Assembly (NCBI GenBank): GCA_021816865.1
Contig: JAKAWX010000001.1
Location: forward strand, 124,739 to 188,738
Length of the DNA stretch: 64,000 nt
Origin: Thermoplasmata archaeon
GTDB taxonomy: Archaea > Thermoplasmatota > Thermoplasmata > Lutacidiplasmatales > UBA184
Reading direction: 5' to 3'
Below, in pieces: positions 41,567-45,313 of this stretch. The notes beneath the pieces are model-generated. The model worked only from the letters and a program-made list of their open reading frames with translations, had not been told where the DNA came from and made no database searches. The translations under genes were made by a program, and so were the position numbers. The first letter of the stretch is position 1, and every line of letters starts with the position of its first letter.

Positions 41567-41574
41567 TTATTTAG
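41567..41574 (-). promoter_or_regulatory. TATA-like box (CTAAATAA on the minus strand) about 34 nt upstream of the 41537 start
   Basis: The plus strand reads TTATTTAG, the only AT-rich patch near the start. Confidence 0.4.
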
Positions 41575-41997
41575 ACGTTATCGTGGGCTACCCGGAGCCT
41601 CGTATCCGGACTGGGCGACGCAAGGACCTTCGCGCCCAACGCATCTTGTCGAGTACCGGGACTCCGCACCCCGCTTCTGACGAGTGCCGTACGGCTCAAA
41701 CCCCGAGCGAGTGGAAGGGTCCGAGATCTGGGGTGTTCGGCGGGGCCCCGGCTTGAGCCATCCGCGAACCGCCTGGGGACGCGATAGTAGCCGGGTGCGA
41801 TCTGGGCGTGACCCCTGTCGCGTAGAAGCGGCGGTACGAAGCCGCATCGGGCGCAGCGGTAGGGGCACTGGTCGAGGCGCCGGGTCGACGCCATCGAGAC
41901 TAGCCCACACTGTCGTTGATGAGAAAGGGGTAGGAAGTGGTTAGCCGCAACCCCACCCGCCTTCACGGGGAGGTTGGCCTGCTCTATCCCAGGAGCC

Positions 41998-42555
41998 CTA
42001 CGGCAGCGCGACGCTGGTCGTGCCCTGGAGAGCCCCGGTGCCGGCTGCGATTAAGTCGTCGCCCGATACCGAGATGCTCGTGTAGAGGACCAAGGTGTCG
42101 GTGCTGGCGAATGTAACCGGAAGCGAGCCTCCGCTCCAGGTGCCCGCCGTGAAGTTGAACGCGGCGAGCGTCGTTCCGGTCAGACTCAGTATCGTGACCG
42201 TTGCGCCTCCAGGCATCGAGACGGGGGAACCCCCGCTCTGCACGGTAAACTTGACGTTCGCCGTGGTTACGGTGGAGCTCGCGGACGCGATGCCCACCGA
42301 GTAGCAGTGGCCGGCCGGCGGAGACGCGCCGCAGGGACTGGTCGCGCTTCCGCTAGACTGCTGAGCCACTCCGTAGCCGAAAGCGCTACCAATGGGTGTG
42401 GAACCAGGGCCCTTCGTCAGTCCGGAGATCAGTACGTACAAGACGGCAGCCAGCACGACCGTGATCGCGACGAGCAAAATCGTCGCGATGATCGGCGACA
42501 CACCGCGCTTGCGCGCCTTTCTCCAGCTTCGTTCTCTCTTGCCAAAGACGTTCAT
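41998..42555 (-). CDS. archaeal type IV pilin-like protein (class III signal peptide)
   Basis: MNVFGKRERSWRKARKRGVSPIIATILLVAITVVLAAVLYVLISGL is a canonical KRG|VSP prepilin-peptidase-type site followed by a hydrophobic helix. Length 185 aa. GGAGG lies 11-15 nt upstream of the ATG (complement of 42566-42570). Confidence 0.75.
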   Translation of the reverse strand: MNVFGKRERSWRKARKRGVSPIIATILLVAITVVLAAVLYVLISGLTKGPGSTPIGSAFGYGVAQQSSGSATSPCGASPPAGHCYSVGIASASSTVTTANVKFTVQSGGSPVSMPGGATVTILSLTGTTLAAFNFTAGTWSGGSLPVTFASTDTLVLYTSISVSGDDLIAAGTGALQGTTSVALP

Positions 42556-42613
42556 TCTCGCTTTTCCTCCGAGGGTCGTTAGACCCGCGGGTGACGCTAT
42601 GGCAAAGCGCCAC

Positions 42614-42622
42614 TATTTAAAA
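42614..42622 (-). promoter_or_regulatory. TATA box (TTTTAAATA on the minus strand) about 60 nt upstream of the pilin ATG
   Basis: The plus strand reads TATTTAAAA within a stretch of about 40% G+C. It is followed by a leader that contains a GGAGG Shine-Dalgarno sequence. Confidence 0.45.
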
Positions 42623-42651
42623 CATGACGTTGATTGAACGACAAACATCGA

Positions 42652-42669
42652 CATGTGATTCGTCACATG
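42652..42669. repeat. perfect 7-bp inverted repeat with a TTCG spacer (CATGTGA-TTCG-TCACATG)
   Basis: Read directly from the sequence. It lies inside the AT-rich patch. A 10-bp palindrome, ACGCATGCGT, follows at 42692-42701. Confidence 0.7.
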
Positions 42670-43297
42670 CCGAACTAACCTGTAACTGCGCACGCATGCG
42701 TATCAATGCCGTCCGCCCGAGTCTCTCGGGCCCTCATGACCGCATTCCGCGAAGGTCAGGGTTCGGGGACCCTGCGCTGGCTGAACCCCTTGGCGCGAGT
42801 ACGGGCCCTAAGTATAGGGTTGCCATGACCCGAAGCCAAACGTGGACGGGCGATCTGGACCTCGGGCGCTCCCGGTCGAGGCGGCGCCGAGCGATGCGGG
42901 ACGCCCCACCTGGACACGCGTGGACTCGAACGGATACCATACGCACGTCCCCCGCCGCGCACGCACCTCTTCGCGCTGTCCGTGGACCGGCGGCCGATAA
43001 CCAGTCGGCCTCGGTTTACCCCATCCGCCGTAGTGAATGCCCTAGCTCATCGGACCGACCCGTCCAGCGCTGGGGCTCCCGTTGTTTGGACGTGGCAAGG
43101 AGTCGATCGACCGGGACCGCTGTGGGGGATTCCGCCTCGAATAGGTCGACGCGACGAGATCGCTCAACTTTTGGGAGCGAGATACTCCTTCAGCCCTCCT
43201 TGGCCCGCGGCGCTCGGCCCGGGCGTAAAGGAACCCGAGTCGCCGACCGGGCCGGCCCTTTACCTCGCAGGTCCCCGACACTACACGGTAGACGAGA

Positions 43298-43308
43298 GTC
43301 GAACGGGC
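43298..43308. repeat. left arm (GTCGAACGGGC) of an 11-nt inverted repeat; the partner is at 43404-43414
   Basis: It is the exact reverse complement of GCCCGTTCGAC at 43404-43414. Both arms are followed by CCAATC. Confidence 0.7.
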
Positions 43309-43403
43309 CCAATCAAACGTCGTCCCGCGTAGTGCACGCGTACTTCACGCGTCTTGGACGGGTCTCGCAGAGCCGGTTATACTGAGCGGTTCTTCGAAGC
43401 TCA

Positions 43404-43436
43404 GCCCGTTCGACCAATCGAACAACTTGTTCGACA
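43404..43436. repeat. cluster of nested palindromes with a GTTCGAC core
   Basis: GCCCGTTCGAC is the right arm of the 11-mer inverted repeat. GTTCGA-CCAA-TCGAAC spans 43408-43423 and CGAACAA-C-TTGTTCG spans 43419-43433. The 9-mer TGTTCGACA (43428-43436) recurs at 43533-43541, over the RHH start codon. Confidence 0.7.
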
Positions 43437-43495
43437 CGTCAGGAATCGTCCTGAATCGGGCTACGGCTTTGTGCTCTCAGCGCGACGGCCGCGCG

Positions 43496-43503
43496 TTTAA
43501 GTA
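43496..43503 (+). promoter_or_regulatory. TATA box TTTAAGTA about 30 nt upstream of the GTG at 43532 (leaderless RHH gene)
   Basis: The element TTTAAGTAGAGGGAC is nearly identical to the promoter element at 25690. Confidence 0.5.
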
Positions 43504-43531
43504 GAGGGACTTTACATGACTCTGCTCGGCT

Positions 43532-44035
43532 GTGTTCGACAACGCTCCAGAGACGGGATCTGAGCGCTCCCGCGCCCAGAATGCCTCCCGGAAGGAAGCC
43601 GAGGACGCGCGCATCGCCCTACGGTGCAACCTGAAGGAGCTCCAGTTGGTCGACTCGTTCGTGGCGAGCGGCGAGTACCCGACCCGATCGGAGCTCATGC
43701 GGGCGGCGCTGCACGCGTTCCTGCGCTCCCGAGCGACGCCGACCGCGCCGACGACGCCGGCCGCCGACGCCGAGGGCCTTGTCGAGGTCCCCGTGCGACT
43801 GCGACCGGAAGAGTACGCGGCCCTCGAGACCTACAGTCGCCACGTCGCGAACGGCCGTCCCGTGCGAGACATTCTCGCCGAGATGGTCCGCCGCGGAGAG
43901 ATGGAGATGAAGGTCCACGAGCTCGTCCACCGCGCCCGGGCGACCGTGCGCGAGGCGGCGGAGACCCGAACCCAGGTCGGAGCGCTCAGCGAGAGCGGCA
44001 AGGACCTGGAGCGAAAGGGGGTCGTCGGTCGGTAG
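43532..44035 (+). CDS. ribbon-helix-helix (CopG/Arc/MetJ-type) DNA-binding protein with two RHH motifs
   Basis: RHH motif 1: RIALRCNLKELQLVDSFVASGEYPTRSELMRAALHAFL. RHH-like motif 2: VEVPVRLRPEEYAALETYSRHVANGRPVRDILAEMVRRGE. A Thr/Pro/Ala linker joins them. Length 167 aa. Confidence 0.7.
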   Translation: MFDNAPETGSERSRAQNASRKEAEDARIALRCNLKELQLVDSFVASGEYPTRSELMRAALHAFLRSRATPTAPTTPAADAEGLVEVPVRLRPEEYAALETYSRHVANGRPVRDILAEMVRRGEMEMKVHELVHRARATVREAAETRTQVGALSESGKDLERKGVVGR

Positions 44036-44070: not shown

Positions 44071-44997
44071 GTGGGAACCTACGAGGCCGAGCGAACGAAG
44101 AGCGACCGAAGCGCCATGCCGGGCTACGGCGAGCCGGACGACGCGAGCTGGGAGAACCGGCTGCGTCTCGGCCAGGATGTCCGATTCGTCCTGGCGGCCG
44201 TTGGTGGCGGGGCGATCCGAGTCGGAAGGGAGATCGCGCGCCAGCACATCCGGCACCTCGAGACGGTCGCGATCAATTGCGACCCCAAGGTCCAAGGATT
44301 CGACGAGTTCGACCGGCGGGTCTACCTCGGCCCCGACACCGGCATCGACACCGACACCGGAGGCTCGCCCATGGTCGGGGGTCTCCTGGCGCGGGCGGCC
44401 GAGCCGGCGCTCCAGCGGATCTTCCACGGCGCGACGTTCGTCATCGTTATCGGAAGCCTCGGCGGCGGTGCCGGGAGCGGCGCGTTGCCGTACGTGCTGG
44501 AGGTCGCCTCCCGCAACGCCGAGGTCGTGAGCGCTTTCGTGATCAAGCCGTTCCGCTGCGAAGGTGAGCGTCGGGCGCTCGCCGATCGGGCGATCGGCCG
44601 GCTCCACTTCGTGGAGTCGTTCGTCGAGAAGCGCGAACGCGGCTTCGCCACCCTCCAGACGCTCGACAACGAGAGCCTCGCTCGCACCCAGGGAGGCCTC
44701 GCCTTCACGCACGTGAGCCAGCACTGGGCCTCCATGATCGAAGAGCACATCGAGCGGTCGTTCCTCGCACCGGCGGAAGCGCTCCTCGAGACGCTCCAAA
44801 TGAGCCAGTCGGTCGAGCAGGGGCCCGTCAACCGGATCCCGCCGGCCGAGGTTCCCGCGGTCGGATTCCCTCCGCACGGCCCGGCCCCCCCGATGCCCGA
44901 GGGCCCGCCGATCCTGCCCGCGATCCACATGATGGACCTCGAAGCCGAGCTCGAGTTCGAGATCGAGCCGGGAGCTCGTCCCGCGCCGGCGCGCTGA
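44071..44997 (+). CDS. FtsZ/tubulin-superfamily GTPase, N-terminal GTPase domain only (no T7 loop or C-terminal subdomain), with a Pro-rich tail
   Basis: VLAAVGGGAIRVG, VAINCD, GGSPMVG, VIVIGSLGGGAGSGALP (tubulin signature), VIKPFRCEGERR, TLQTLDNESL. Together these are collinear with E. coli FtsZ residues about 10-200. The GTG at 44071 is preceded by GAGGGGGG. An alternative start is the ATG at 44116. Confidence 0.75.
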   Translation: MGTYEAERTKSDRSAMPGYGEPDDASWENRLRLGQDVRFVLAAVGGGAIRVGREIARQHIRHLETVAINCDPKVQGFDEFDRRVYLGPDTGIDTDTGGSPMVGGLLARAAEPALQRIFHGATFVIVIGSLGGGAGSGALPYVLEVASRNAEVVSAFVIKPFRCEGERRALADRAIGRLHFVESFVEKRERGFATLQTLDNESLARTQGGLAFTHVSQHWASMIEEHIERSFLAPAEALLETLQMSQSVEQGPVNRIPPAEVPAVGFPPHGPAPPMPEGPPILPAIHMMDLEAELEFEIEPGARPAPAR

Positions 44998-45089
44998 CGG
45001 GCCCACCCCCGCCGGGCAGGCCCCTCCGTCTGCTACGCCCGGCGGTACCGAATCAACCTTAAGTGCGGCCCGGGTTCCGGGATTCCTCG

Positions 45090-45257
45090 ATGGACGGCCG
45101 ACTGTTCACGGTCCTGGGTTTCCTGGTCCTTCCGGTCGCCCTGCTCGGCCTCACGGTCGCGGAGTTCCACTCGAACCCCGTGGCGATCCTTGCCTTGCTC
45201 GCGATGATGATCGGCGGGGCGTTCTACCTTCTGACCTACAGCGAGACGTTCGCCTAA
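45090..45257 (+). CDS. small two-TM membrane protein (55 aa)
   Basis: MDGRLFTVLGFLVLPVALLGLTVAEFHSNPVAILALLAMMIGGAFYLLTYSETFA. A CCTTAAGT box lies about 29 nt upstream of this ATG. Track ORF starts at the GTG at 45063. Confidence 0.45.
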   Translation: MDGRLFTVLGFLVLPVALLGLTVAEFHSNPVAILALLAMMIGGAFYLLTYSETFA

Positions 45258-45313
45258 GTTCCCCCGCCGCGACCGCCGCTGACCCCCGGGTCGCGCGCTC
45301 CGTCGTCGCCGGG

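What the first reader, a model, noticed from the sequence alone, without database searches (positions are those of the whole stretch)
42556..43531. Gene-free, locally AT-rich, palindrome-dense region of about 1 kb between the pilin gene and the RHH/FtsZ-like cassette
Elsewhere in the window, intergenic spacers are mostly under 150 bp. Here 976 bp carry no credible ORF.

The 253-aa track ORF 42624-43385 is Arg/Ser/Thr/Pro-rich and lacks the strong GC3 bias of real genes.

Composition drops locally: I counted 24 G+C in the 60 nt from 42601 to 42660.

The region contains many dyads:
- CATGTGA-TTCG-TCACATG at 42652-42669
- ACGCATGCGT at 42692-42701
- CCCGAG-TCT-CTCGGG at 42716-42730
- GTCGATCGAC at 43102-43111
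- CTGAGC-11 nt-GCTCAG at 43382-43404
- the GTTCGAC cluster at 43404-43436

Possible roles:
- a centromere-like or operator array for the adjacent RHH protein
- one or more structured ncRNAs
- a large shared regulatory region for the divergent pilin and RHH promoters
- a replication-origin-like unwinding element, which is less likely
Basis: seen in the sequence. Interest (0 to 1): 0.6.

Follow-up and report, generated by a model that had tools for sequence, protein, structure and literature searches.

The report
Pilin / RHH promoter region with filler
The 1-kb gene-free gap is a two-way promoter region whose two ends carry control sites conserved across a whole genus of uncultured soil and peat Thermoplasmata, while its 650-bp middle is fast-drifting non-coding DNA found only in three close relatives.

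Summary
The gap is real. Two descriptors fail: only the ends are AT-rich (50% and 56% G+C; middle 66.5%, window 70.5%), and the dyad count is ordinary for this window.

The region lies between an archaeal type IV pilin gene (minus strand) and an operon encoding a tandem ribbon-helix-helix (RHH), CdrS-like protein and a short FtsZ-like protein. This layout recurs throughout the genus, normally with a 430-530-bp spacer. Only the window and two close relatives have about 1 kb.

Both ends are conserved.
- **RHH side:** GTTATAC, then GTTCGAC 32 nt on, GTTCGACACGTCAG 21 nt on, TTTAAGTA 67-68 nt on, and the GTG start 36 nt on. This holds in 112 of 118 distinct sequences.
- **Third site:** another GTTCGAC overlaps the start codon in all 118.
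- **Pilin side:** a TATA box, a palindrome, phased CG motifs and an ATGCGCAT dyad.

The middle (42704-43357) is single-copy and absent from 100 congeners. It diverges faster than 4-fold sites. It shows no frame, no codon periodicity, no protein family, no Rfam hit and no conserved RNA fold. Replication-origin tests were negative.

Verdict: an ordinary divergent promoter/operator region plus lineage-specific filler. That the RHH protein binds these sites is inferred, not shown.

The parts
41998..42555 (-). Archaeal type IV pilin gene (185 aa), transcribed leftward away from the region
   Evidence: Pfam Pilin_N gives 30.6 bits (cut-off 25.2). TIGR02537 gives 52.9 bits (cut-off 20). The N-terminal part is 92-97% identical to L018 at the DNA level, the C-terminal part only 57-68%.
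42565..42571 (-). Complement of a Shine-Dalgarno-like GGAGGA for the pilin mRNA
   Evidence: TCCTCCG on the + strand. CCTCC is present at this place in 82 of 86 distinct pilin-side sequences.
42573..42586 (.). Palindrome GGGTC-GTTA-GACCC between the pilin TATA box and its ribosome site. Inferred to be an operator at or near the transcription start, or a 5'-UTR hairpin.
   Evidence: The pattern GGGNC-N4-6-GNCCC is present in 73 of 86 distinct sequences. It is identical in the window, L018 and L080.
42614..42622 (-). TATA box of the pilin promoter (TATTTAAAA on +; TATTTGAA or TATATGAA in congeners)
   Evidence: A TATA-like octamer is conserved at this position in 83 of 86 sequences. It lies about 60 nt upstream of the pilin ATG. 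The transcription start was not mapped.
42639..42675 (.). Four CG-centred motifs at 10-12-bp intervals (CGACA, CGACA, TCGTCA, CGAAC): candidate phased protein-binding sites upstream of the pilin promoter
   Evidence: The consensus of 32 typical spacers is CGnCA-N6-CG-N9-TCGnC-N5-GACGTAAT. The UUCG hairpin that this stretch forms in the window is not kept in L018 or L080.
42686..42705 (.). Dyad element CTGCGCAC-GC-ATGCGTAT.
   Evidence: ATGCGCAT-type element found in 82 of 86 sequences at 100-170 nt from the pilin ATG. L018 has ATACGCAT-CA-ATGCGTAT and L080 has ATGCGCAT-GA-ATGCGCAT.
42704..43357 (.). Lineage-specific, non-coding, fast-evolving middle (654 bp, 66.5% G+C)
   Evidence: Single copy in the genome. 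No real match in 100 congeneric species, phage or plasmid collections, or by a conserved-core pattern in JGI metagenomes. Homologous only in L018 (72% identity, indels of 1-45 nt) and L080 (about 60%). No frame shows a synonymous excess, and there is no codon periodicity. Structure conservation index 0.49, the same as shuffled controls.
43376..43382 (+). Invariant GTTATAC heptamer, 32 nt before GTTCGAC site 1. Either a fourth GTTNNAC-type site or a second TATA-like box.
   Evidence: Present in all 118 distinct upstream sequences. The distance to site 1 is 32 nt in 109 of them and 31-33 nt in 7 more.
43408..43414 (+). GTTCGAC site 1
   Evidence: Two upstream GTTCGAC copies are present in 117 of 118 sequences, 21 nt apart in 109 of them. 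The 14 nt between the copies is not conserved.
43429..43442 (+). GTTCGAC site 2, extended to GTTCGACACGTCAG
   Evidence: The exact 14-mer occurs in 104 of 118 sequences. It is unique in the 1.54-Mb genome.
43496..43503 (+). TATA box TTTAAGTA of the RHH operon, 36 nt before the GTG start. This predicts a nearly leaderless mRNA.
   Evidence: Present in 115 of 118 sequences, at 36 nt from the start codon in 112. The transcription start is inferred from the usual archaeal distance of about 25 nt between TATA box and start.
43532..44035 (+). Tandem RHH, CdrS-like protein gene (167 aa). A third GTTCGAC at 43534-43540 overlaps codons 1-3 (M-F-D).
   Evidence: The NCBIfam CdrS model gives E=5.7e-6 and 26 bits, below the cut-off of 100. 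The best fold matches are RHH antitoxins of the ParD type (TM-score 0.62-0.71 over about 40 residues, E about 1). GTGTTCGAC occurs in 118 of 118 sequences. M1, F2 and D3 are invariant while residues 4-23 vary.
44116..44997 (+). Short FtsZ/tubulin-family gene, co-oriented with and directly downstream of the RHH gene
   Evidence: Pfam Tubulin gives 46.5 bits (cut-off 33). The ftsZ equivalog gives 67 bits (cut-off 295). A homologue was found in 134 of the 141 loci fetched around RHH homologues.

Best explanation
The region is the divergent control region between two transcription units: a type IV pilin gene reading left, and an operon for a tandem RHH (CdrS-like) protein plus an FtsZ-like protein reading right. 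The functional parts are its two ends.

**Right end (43376-43540).**
- An archaeal TATA box, TTTAAGTA, sits 36 nt before the GTG start, so the mRNA should be nearly leaderless.
- There are four heptamers of the type GTT(ATA/CGA)C. Their start-to-start spacings are 32, 21 and 105 nt, about 3, 2 and 10 helical turns, which places them on one face of the DNA.
- The last heptamer overlaps the start codon.
- I infer that these are operators through which the encoded RHH protein controls its own operon. The upstream sites lie where CdrS sites lie in Haloferax. The site at the start would block initiation, possibly by looping to the upstream pair.

**Left end (42556-42705).**
- It holds the pilin ribosome site, a palindrome at the expected transcription start, the pilin TATA box, four CG motifs phased at 10-12 bp, and a 20-bp dyad of the ATGCGCAT type.
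- These are sites for one or more unidentified regulators of pilin expression.

**Middle (42704-43357).**
- It has no detectable function. It is DNA gained in the common ancestor of the window's species and two close relatives, and it has since drifted without constraint.
- Its origin is unknown.

**Shown:** the anatomy, the conservation, and the absence of coding or RNA-structure signal.

**Inferred:** promoter use, transcription starts, and the identity of the binding proteins.
For: **Synteny and spacer length**
- The pilin and RHH genes are adjacent and divergent throughout the genus, and the FtsZ-like gene follows the RHH gene in 134 of 141 loci.
- The spacer is 430-530 bp in most of the 36 genome and 60 metagenome loci measured. 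It is 976, 1050 and 1042 bp only in the window, L018 and L080, whose RHH proteins are 97-98% identical to the window's.

**Right end**
- The right-end layout, with fixed spacing, holds in 112 of 118 distinct sequences, while the DNA between the motifs varies freely.
- It persists in genomes whose RHH protein is only 54-59% identical to the window's.
- There is no shared RNA fold in this block: structure conservation index 0.07. Conservation is therefore at the DNA level.
- The 14-mer GTTCGACACGTCAG is unique in the genome. The paired arrangement has only one other match, at C11:1310, whose context was not examined.

**Left end**
- The motifs are conserved in 62-83 of 86 distinct sequences.

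**Middle**
- 72% identity to L018, against 84% at 4-fold degenerate sites of four flanking genes, and about 60% to L080.
- Indel lengths are not multiples of 3.
- Synonymous to non-synonymous differences are at best 21:46 in any frame, against 40:13 in the FtsZ-like control gene.
- tblastx scores are similar in all six frames.
- No protein family, no Rfam match, and no excess RNA folding.

**Literature parallel**
- In Haloferax volcanii, CdrS is an RHH regulator cotranscribed with ftsZ2. Its ChIP-seq motif lies 41-110 nt upstream of the transcription start at 15 of 18 sites (PMC8406309; see also PMC7439475).
Against: - No binding or transcription data exist.
- The RHH assignment is weak. The CdrS model scores 26 bits against a cut-off of 100, there is no PDB sequence hit, and fold matches have E of about 1.
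- The third GTTCGAC is fully explained by coding M-F-D with preferred codons, so it may not be a DNA site at all.
- GTTCGAC is a common heptamer in this genome, with 45 copies in the window. The case rests on positional conservation, not on rarity.
- Three lineages keep a roughly 1-kb spacer despite heavy sequence turnover. This could hint at a length or spacing constraint that was not tested.
- A fast-evolving, unstructured transcript cannot be excluded from sequence alone.
Confidence: 0.7

Rival explanations
1. The middle, or the whole spacer, encodes one or more non-coding RNAs. One possibility is a transcript driven rightward from the symmetric TATTTAAAA box. Another is one driven leftward from GTATAAC.
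For: - The region is long and gene-free, with G+C close to the genomic level.
- Two invariant A/T-rich boxes face the middle.
- The + strand folds slightly better than shuffles, z = -1.6.
Against: - No Rfam match, even at E<=10, beyond two chance hits, and no tRNA or tmRNA.
- z-scores of -1.6 and -0.75 are unremarkable.
- The consensus fold of the window and L018 has a structure conservation index of 0.49, the same as column-shuffled controls (z = -0.4 and -0.2).
- The sequence diverges faster than 4-fold sites, and it is missing from 100 congeners.
- The UUCG hairpin is not kept in the two closest relatives.
Confidence: 0.08
2. The middle is the remnant of a decayed gene or of a mobile or foreign insertion. 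This concerns its origin and is compatible with the main explanation.
For: - The extra 500 bp or so exist only in one small clade.
- Other congeners carry whole genes at this site, such as an alcohol dehydrogenase and a membrane protein. The site therefore tolerates insertions.
- The neighbouring pilin C-terminal region is also hypervariable.
- The middle's G+C of 66.5% is gene-like rather than spacer-like.
Against: - No similarity to the genes inserted in other species, to the organism's own genome in six frames, to 1.84 billion representative proteins, or to phage and plasmid collections.
- No residual codon periodicity.
- No terminal inverted repeats, direct repeats or tandem repeats of note, and only one copy in the genome.
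Confidence: 0.15
3. The GTTCGAC sites form a centromere-like loading site. The RHH protein would be an adaptor that couples this DNA to filaments of the adjacent FtsZ/tubulin-like protein, as in tubC-TubR-TubZ (type III partition).
For: - The gene order (iterated sites, then a DNA-binding protein, then a tubulin-family GTPase) matches tubC-tubR-tubZ. This comparison is from my own knowledge.
- The sites are helically phased.
- The pairing of RHH and FtsZ-like genes holds in 134 of 141 loci.
- The FtsZ-like protein ends in a Pro-rich linker and an acidic peptide. This is the kind of tail that binds partner proteins.
Against: - There are only 3-4 sites, and one of them is explained by coding.
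- The locus is chromosomal, among housekeeping genes (FEN1, PAC2, PEP synthase), and stable across a genus.
- TubR is a winged-helix protein, not an RHH protein (own knowledge).
- The upstream sites lie at about the distance from the start at which the transcription factor CdrS binds (PMC8406309).
- Nothing indicates a plasmid or provirus.
Confidence: 0.06
4. The region is a replication origin or an unwinding element.
For: - There are AT-rich patches at both ends.
- A subset of congeners has CCAGTGGAAAC next to the pilin TATA box. This resembles the archaeal origin recognition box (ORB) core as I recall it.
Against: - The window itself lacks that motif.
- It occurs once per spacer, without clusters, and genome-wide counts equal those of the reversed control pattern.
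- The only Cdc6_C match is on contig C6.
- The cumulative GC skew of contig C2 shows no clear turn at 167-168 kb.
Confidence: 0.02

Closest known systems
cdrS-ftsZ2 locus of Halobacteria: the RHH regulator CdrS, cotranscribed with a tubulin homologue (PMC7439475, PMC8406309)
   Same: - A small-domain RHH gene sits directly upstream of, and co-oriented with, an FtsZ-family gene.
- Candidate binding sites lie about 90-125 nt upstream of the start. This is close to the range of 41-110 nt upstream of the transcription start reported for CdrS motifs.
- The RHH domain gives its best family hit to the CdrS model.
   Different: - The protein is 167 aa with two RHH-like units, not about 60 aa, and it scores 26 bits against a cut-off of 100.
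- The downstream gene is a short, divergent fourth FtsZ paralogue (67 bits against 295). The genome's two canonical ftsZ genes lie elsewhere.
- The motif here is a direct repeat of GTTCGAC.
- There are no functional data.
Autoregulated RHH operators made of phased short repeats (Arc, MetJ, CopG, omega, ParG; own knowledge)
   Same: Short 7-bp sites repeated at whole numbers of helical turns, placed upstream of and across the start of the regulator's own gene.
   Different: - The context is an archaeal TATA/TFB promoter.
- The sites are far apart (21, 32 and 105 nt) rather than abutting.
- The binder is predicted to be a single-chain tandem RHH.
tubC-tubR-tubZ type III partition cassettes of Bacillus plasmids and Clostridium phages (own knowledge)
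   Same: The order is iterated DNA sites, then a DNA-binding protein gene, then a tubulin/FtsZ-family GTPase gene.
   Different: - The locus is chromosomal and genus-wide.
- There are 3-4 sites rather than 7 or more.
- The predicted binder is an RHH protein, not a winged helix.
- The GTPase is truncated.
Divergent archaeal promoter regions upstream of pilin and archaellin genes (own knowledge)
   Same: A TATA box lies about 60 nt before the pilin ATG, with a palindrome at the expected transcription start and conserved dyads upstream.
   Different: - The regulator is unknown.
- The spacer is unusually long for a 1.5-Mb genome, even in its normal form of about 450 bp.

Membership tests
cdrS-ftsZ2 locus | The RHH protein matches the CdrS family model above its curated cut-off | tested here: not met
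   NF058555 gives 26.2 bits against a cut-off of 100, E=5.7e-6. It is the only hit to that model in the genome.
cdrS-ftsZ2 locus | The RHH gene sits directly upstream of, and co-oriented with, an FtsZ-family gene | tested here: met
   The RHH gene ends at 44035 and the FtsZ-like gene starts at 44071 or 44116. An FtsZ-like homologue was found in 134 of the 141 loci fetched around RHH homologues.
cdrS-ftsZ2 locus | The downstream gene is an FtsZ2 orthologue | tested here: not met
   TIGR00065 gives 67 bits against a cut-off of 295, covering only the N-terminal GTPase domain. Two full FtsZ genes (415 and 390 bits) lie on contigs C10 and C3.
cdrS-ftsZ2 locus | The regulator binds a specific motif upstream of target promoters | not testable with these tools
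   Only positional conservation of GTTCGAC sites is available. Testing needs EMSA or footprinting.
Archaeal TATA-box promoter | A conserved A/T-rich octamer lies about 25-35 nt upstream of the transcription start | tested here: inconclusive
   TTTAAGTA lies 36 nt before the GTG start in 112 of 118 sequences. A TATTTRAA-type box lies about 60 nt before the pilin ATG in 83 of 86.
Structured non-coding RNA | Match to a curated covariance model | tested here: not met
   No Rfam family reaches its gathering score in the whole window. At E<=10 there are only mir-57 and a frameshift element, both far below their cut-offs.
Structured non-coding RNA | A secondary structure conserved beyond shuffled controls | tested here: not met
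   For the middle, the structure conservation index is 0.49, against 0.49-0.51 in shuffles. For the right block across 103 sequences it is 0.07.
Archaeal replication origin | Several origin recognition boxes flank an AT-rich stretch, next to orc1/cdc6 | tested here: not met
   No ORB-like cluster in the window's genome or in five relatives. The Cdc6_C match is on contig C6.
Archaeal replication origin | A change of GC-skew sign at the site | tested here: inconclusive
   The cumulative skew of C2 is noisy, with no clear extreme at 167-168 kb. The genome is in 11 contigs.
Type III (TubZ) partition cassette | A tubulin/FtsZ-family GTPase encoded downstream of a DNA-binding adaptor | tested here: met
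   Pfam Tubulin gives 46.5 bits against a cut-off of 33. An RHH-like gene lies upstream.
Type III (TubZ) partition cassette | A centromere made of many iterated repeats, on a plasmid or phage | tested here: not met
   Three or four heptamers only. The neighbours are housekeeping genes and the synteny is stable across the genus. No phage or plasmid match to the middle of the spacer.
Pseudogene | Frame-shifted similarity to a protein family, or residual codon periodicity | tested here: not met
   See for similarity, for periodicity, and for substitution pattern.
MITE or IS remnant | Several copies in the genome; terminal inverted repeats | tested here: not met
   Single copy in the 83%-complete genome. 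Only four short imperfect inverted pairs, none at the ends.

The most novel reading that the evidence does not exclude
The four helically phased GTT(ATA/CGA)C sites may be more than transcriptional operators. They could be a chromosomal loading site at which the single-chain tandem RHH protein nucleates or anchors filaments of the adjacent truncated FtsZ-like protein. That would make this an RHH-based, chromosome-encoded analogue of tubC-TubR-TubZ, conserved across a family of uncultured soil Thermoplasmata.
Probability: 0.06. Interest if true: 0.75.

Novelty: new member of a known kind. Interest (0 to 1): 0.3.

Why it matters
- **For the scan:** a conspicuous 1-kb 'dark' gap is explained, and it is mostly not functional.
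- **For archaeal cell biology:**
  - The right-hand 170 bp is a sharply defined, genus-wide cis-regulatory module in front of an operon for a CdrS-like RHH protein and an FtsZ-family protein. The organisms cannot be grown.
  - The module gives a concrete DNA probe and a candidate protein-DNA pair. These allow a bench test of whether RHH control of tubulin-family genes, so far shown only in haloarchaea, extends to Thermoplasmata.
- **A point of caution:** the contrast between rigidly conserved ends and a middle that turns over faster than 4-fold sites shows that spacer length alone is a poor guide to function in compact archaeal genomes.

Tried and rejected
1. **Rfam and tRNA scans.** Rfam at gathering score over the whole window and at E<=10 over the region, plus ARAGORN. 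Nothing found.
2. **Coding tests.**
   - G+C by codon phase.
   - Pfam on the 253-aa ORF and on a 79-aa minus-strand ORF.
   - Six-frame tblastx against the organism's own genome and all loci.
   - Synonymous versus non-synonymous counts in all frames against L018.
   - phmmer of the 253-aa ORF against 1.84 billion proteins.
   - All were negative.
3. **RNA structure.** Single-sequence z-scores, RNAalifold on the window-L018 pair, and column-shuffle controls on both strands. No signal. The 20 'compensatory' pairs are what shuffled alignments also give.
4. **Mobile or foreign origin.** Copy number in the genome, 100 congeners, phages and plasmids, a conserved-core pattern in JGI metagenomes, repeats, and genes inserted at the same site in other species. 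No link found.
5. **Replication origin.** ORB-like motif search, GC skew and the location of orc1/cdc6. Rejected.
6. **Regulon search.** The GTTCGAC pair and the 14-mer were searched in the organism's own genome. The 14-mer occurs only at this locus, and the pair has one other match, at C11:1310, which was not followed up. No regulon could be defined. CACGTCAG recurs in low-GC patches near the ends of contigs C10 and C11, which remains unexplained.
7. **Crude gene caller.** A GC3-based gene caller was tried to measure all spacers. It missed real genes, so its numbers were discarded.
8. **Bacterial promoter and terminator scan.** It does not apply to archaeal promoters and was ignored.
Full report
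**1. Where the window comes from**

The window lies on contig C2 of a 1.54-Mb assembly in 11 contigs. The assembly is 83% complete and has about 70.7% G+C. Relatives found with the adjacent RHH protein are all metagenome-assembled 'Thermoplasmata archaeon' genomes from soils and peat, including MAG UBA184. UBA184 is mentioned in the paper that names the order Lutacidiplasmatales (PMC9287336). I did not test whether this genome belongs to that order.

**2. Checking the observation**

The 976 bp between the pilin start (42555, minus strand) and the RHH start (43532) carry no gene.
- G+C by codon phase in 42704-43357 is flat at 0.69/0.66/0.65 (p=0.68). In the RHH gene it is 0.74/0.50/0.87.
- The 253-aa ORF has no Pfam match.
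- Against 1.84 billion representative proteins it finds only itself, the matching ORF of the sister genome, and a low-complexity hit.

- **AT-richness.** The low-G+C patches are confined to the ends: 42556-42703 at 50% and 43358-43531 at 56%. The middle 654 bp is 66.5%, and the window as a whole is 70.5%.
- **Dyad density.** The region has 14 hairpin dyads with 6-bp stems, against 4.5 in its own dinucleotide shuffles. Tiles of 976 nt across the same window average 10.5 +/- 5.1, and 28% of them reach 14.

**3. The neighbours**

- **Left:** a 185-aa archaeal type IV pilin (Pilin_N, TIGR02537), and beyond it a PKD-domain pilin-like protein.
- **Right:** a 167-aa protein whose residues 27-66 match the CdrS RHH regulator model below its cut-off (26 bits against 100, E=5.7e-6). 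A second strand-helix-helix unit follows.
  - An AlphaFold model built from 38 homologues (pLDDT 80.5) shows two helix-hairpin units.
  - Its best PDB matches are RHH antitoxins of the ParD type (TM-score 0.62-0.71 over about 40 residues), but with E of about 1.
- **Next gene:** a 293-aa protein with only the FtsZ/tubulin GTPase domain (Pfam Tubulin 46.5 bits; ftsZ equivalog 67 bits against 295).
- The genome also has two canonical ftsZ genes and a third FtsZ-family gene elsewhere.
- An FtsZ-like homologue was found in 134 of the 141 loci fetched around RHH homologues, including sister genera.

**4. Comparison with relatives**

The divergent arrangement of pilin and RHH genes recurs across the genus.
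- In 36 genome loci and 60 metagenome loci where both genes could be placed, the spacer is mostly 430-530 bp.
- Only three sequences have about 1 kb: the window (976 bp), L018 (JAJZGO010000024, 1050 bp) and L080 (VFSW01021076, 1042 bp). Their RHH proteins are 97-98% identical to the window's.
- A few other loci have whole genes inserted at this site, such as an alcohol dehydrogenase and a membrane protein.

**5. The conserved ends**

*RHH side.* I compared 118 distinct upstream sequences.
- 112 of them have exactly this layout: GTTATAC, then GTTCGAC 32 nt on, then GTTCGACACGTCAG 21 nt on, then TTTAAGTA 67-68 nt on, then the GTG start 36 nt on.
- The intervening DNA varies freely.
- All 118 continue GTG-TTC-GAC, which gives a third GTTCGAC. 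M-F-D is invariant in the protein, although residues 4-23 are variable.
- In the window these elements lie at 43376-82, 43408-14, 43429-42, 43496-503 and 43532-40.
- The heptamer spacings of 32, 21 and 105 nt are about 3, 2 and 10 helical turns.
- The layout survives in genomes whose RHH protein is only 54-59% identical to the window's, although the two most divergent of those (54-56% identical) have lost site 1. It is gone from the most divergent sister genera examined, at 48% identity and below.
- RNAalifold finds no shared fold in this block (structure conservation index 0.07). The constraint is therefore on DNA.
- The 14-mer is unique in the genome. The GTTCGAC pair has one other match, at C11:1310, which I did not examine.

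*Pilin side.* I compared 86 distinct sequences. They share:
- the complement of a Shine-Dalgarno site;
- a GGGNC-N4-6-GNCCC palindrome;
- a TATTTRAA-type TATA box about 60 nt from the ATG;
- CG-centred motifs at 10-12-bp intervals;
- an ATRCGCAT-N2-ATGCGYAT dyad.

The UUCG hairpin, CCCGAG-TCT-CTCGGG, GTCGATCGAC and CTGAGC-N11-GCTCAG are not kept even in L018 and L080.

**6. The middle (42704-43357)**

- **Copy number and distribution.**
  - It is single-copy in the genome.
  - It has no real match in 100 congeneric species or in phage and plasmid collections.
  - A 29-base conserved-core pattern found nothing in JGI metagenomes.
- **Rate of change.**
  - It is collinear with L018 at 72% identity, with indels of 1-45 nt. 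Four-fold degenerate sites of four flanking genes are 84% identical.
  - Against L080 it falls to about 60%, below what blastn can detect, while the flanks are 80-92% identical.
- **No coding signal.**
  - No frame shows a coding-type substitution pattern. The best is 21 synonymous to 46 non-synonymous differences, against 40:13 in the FtsZ-like control gene.
  - tblastx scores are alike in all six frames.
  - There is no similarity to the genes inserted at this site in other species.
- **No RNA-structure signal.**
  - Single-strand folding z-scores are -1.6 and -0.75.
  - The consensus fold with L018 has a structure conservation index of 0.49, the same as column-shuffled alignments.
- **No repeats.** There are no notable direct, inverted or tandem repeats.

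I conclude that this DNA is unconstrained. It was gained in the ancestor of a small clade, and its origin is unknown.

**7. Replication-origin idea**

Some congeners have CCAGTGGAAAC beside the pilin TATA box. This resembles the archaeal origin recognition box as I recall it. The evidence is against an origin.
- The window lacks the motif.
- It occurs once per spacer, and genome-wide counts equal those of a reversed control pattern.
- The only orc1/cdc6 gene is on contig C6.
- The GC skew shows no clear turn at the locus.

**8. Mechanism proposed**

*Shown:* two conserved blocks with promoter-like and operator-like elements at fixed spacing, and an unconstrained middle.

*Inferred:*
- TTTAAGTA drives a nearly leaderless mRNA for the RHH and FtsZ-like genes.
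- The phased GTTNNAC sites are operators for the encoded tandem RHH protein. The upstream pair sits at about the distance at which H. volcanii CdrS binds (41-110 nt upstream of the transcription start at 15 of 18 sites, PMC8406309). The site at the start codon is placed to block initiation, perhaps by looping.
- The pilin-side palindrome, CG array and dyad bind unidentified regulators of pilin expression.

This works like a CdrS-type autoregulated operon. It fails the membership tests for cdrS-ftsZ2 proper, because the model score is below the cut-off and the downstream gene is not FtsZ2.

**9. Limits**

- Protein binding is untested.
- The third GTTCGAC may be purely a consequence of coding.
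- Three lineages retain about 1 kb despite heavy turnover, and I did not test whether length itself is constrained.

**10. Verdict**

This is an ordinary divergent promoter/operator region that has been padded, in one small clade, with about 650 bp of neutral DNA. The reusable result is the sharply conserved GTTATAC/GTTCGAC module upstream of an operon for a CdrS-like RHH protein and an FtsZ-family protein.

Noticed in passing
window 41590-42400: The C-terminal half of the pilin gene and the ORF beyond it (41571-41966) are hypervariable between close relatives. DNA identity to L018 is 57-68%, against 92-97% for the pilin N-terminus. This fits diversifying selection or allele replacement at a surface-protein locus.
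   Followed up: partly
L032, L036, L057, L075 and others, about 75-90 nt from the pilin ATG: About a third of congeners carry CCAGTGGAAAC, which resembles the archaeal origin recognition box core, between the pilin TATA box and the CG-motif array. The window has TTGATTGAAC at that position instead. The motif occurs once per spacer, with no clusters in five whole genomes.
   Followed up: yes
G000:C10:168870-169090 and G000:C11:165845-165875 (outside the window): CACGTCAGAAAACAGGC(C/T)CG recurs in low-GC patches near the ends of two contigs. It shares CACGTCAG(A/G)AA with GTTCGAC site 2 and with the pilin-side block of congeners. It could be a further site for the same factor, or part of a mobile element.
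   Followed up: partly
L047, L060, L111, L150 (spacers of 2.0-2.4 kb): In several congeners a membrane-protein gene of 226-261 aa (MxxNLRISLTIL...) is inserted between the pilin and RHH genes. In L047 and L111 a zinc-type alcohol dehydrogenase gene is inserted as well. The site therefore tolerates gene-sized insertions.
   Followed up: partly
window 43532-43540: The RHH protein starts M-F-D in every homologue examined, although the next 20 residues or so are variable. The DNA is GTGTTCGAC in 118 of 118 sequences. This suggests a constraint at the DNA level on top of the coding constraint.
   Followed up: partly
G000:C10:16702-17673, C3:4288-5262, C6:148683-149624, and window 44116-44997: The genome has four FtsZ-family genes: two canonical ones (415 and 390 bits), one intermediate (177 bits), and the short one beside the RHH gene (67 bits). 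No CdrS-like gene other than the tandem RHH was detected.
   Followed up: partly
window 44998-45313: A 316-bp convergent gap between the FtsZ-like and PAC2 genes is 82-90% identical to L018. This is much better conserved than the middle of the studied region. It contains a 64-aa ORF (45063-45257) that another note calls a tiny membrane protein.
   Followed up: no
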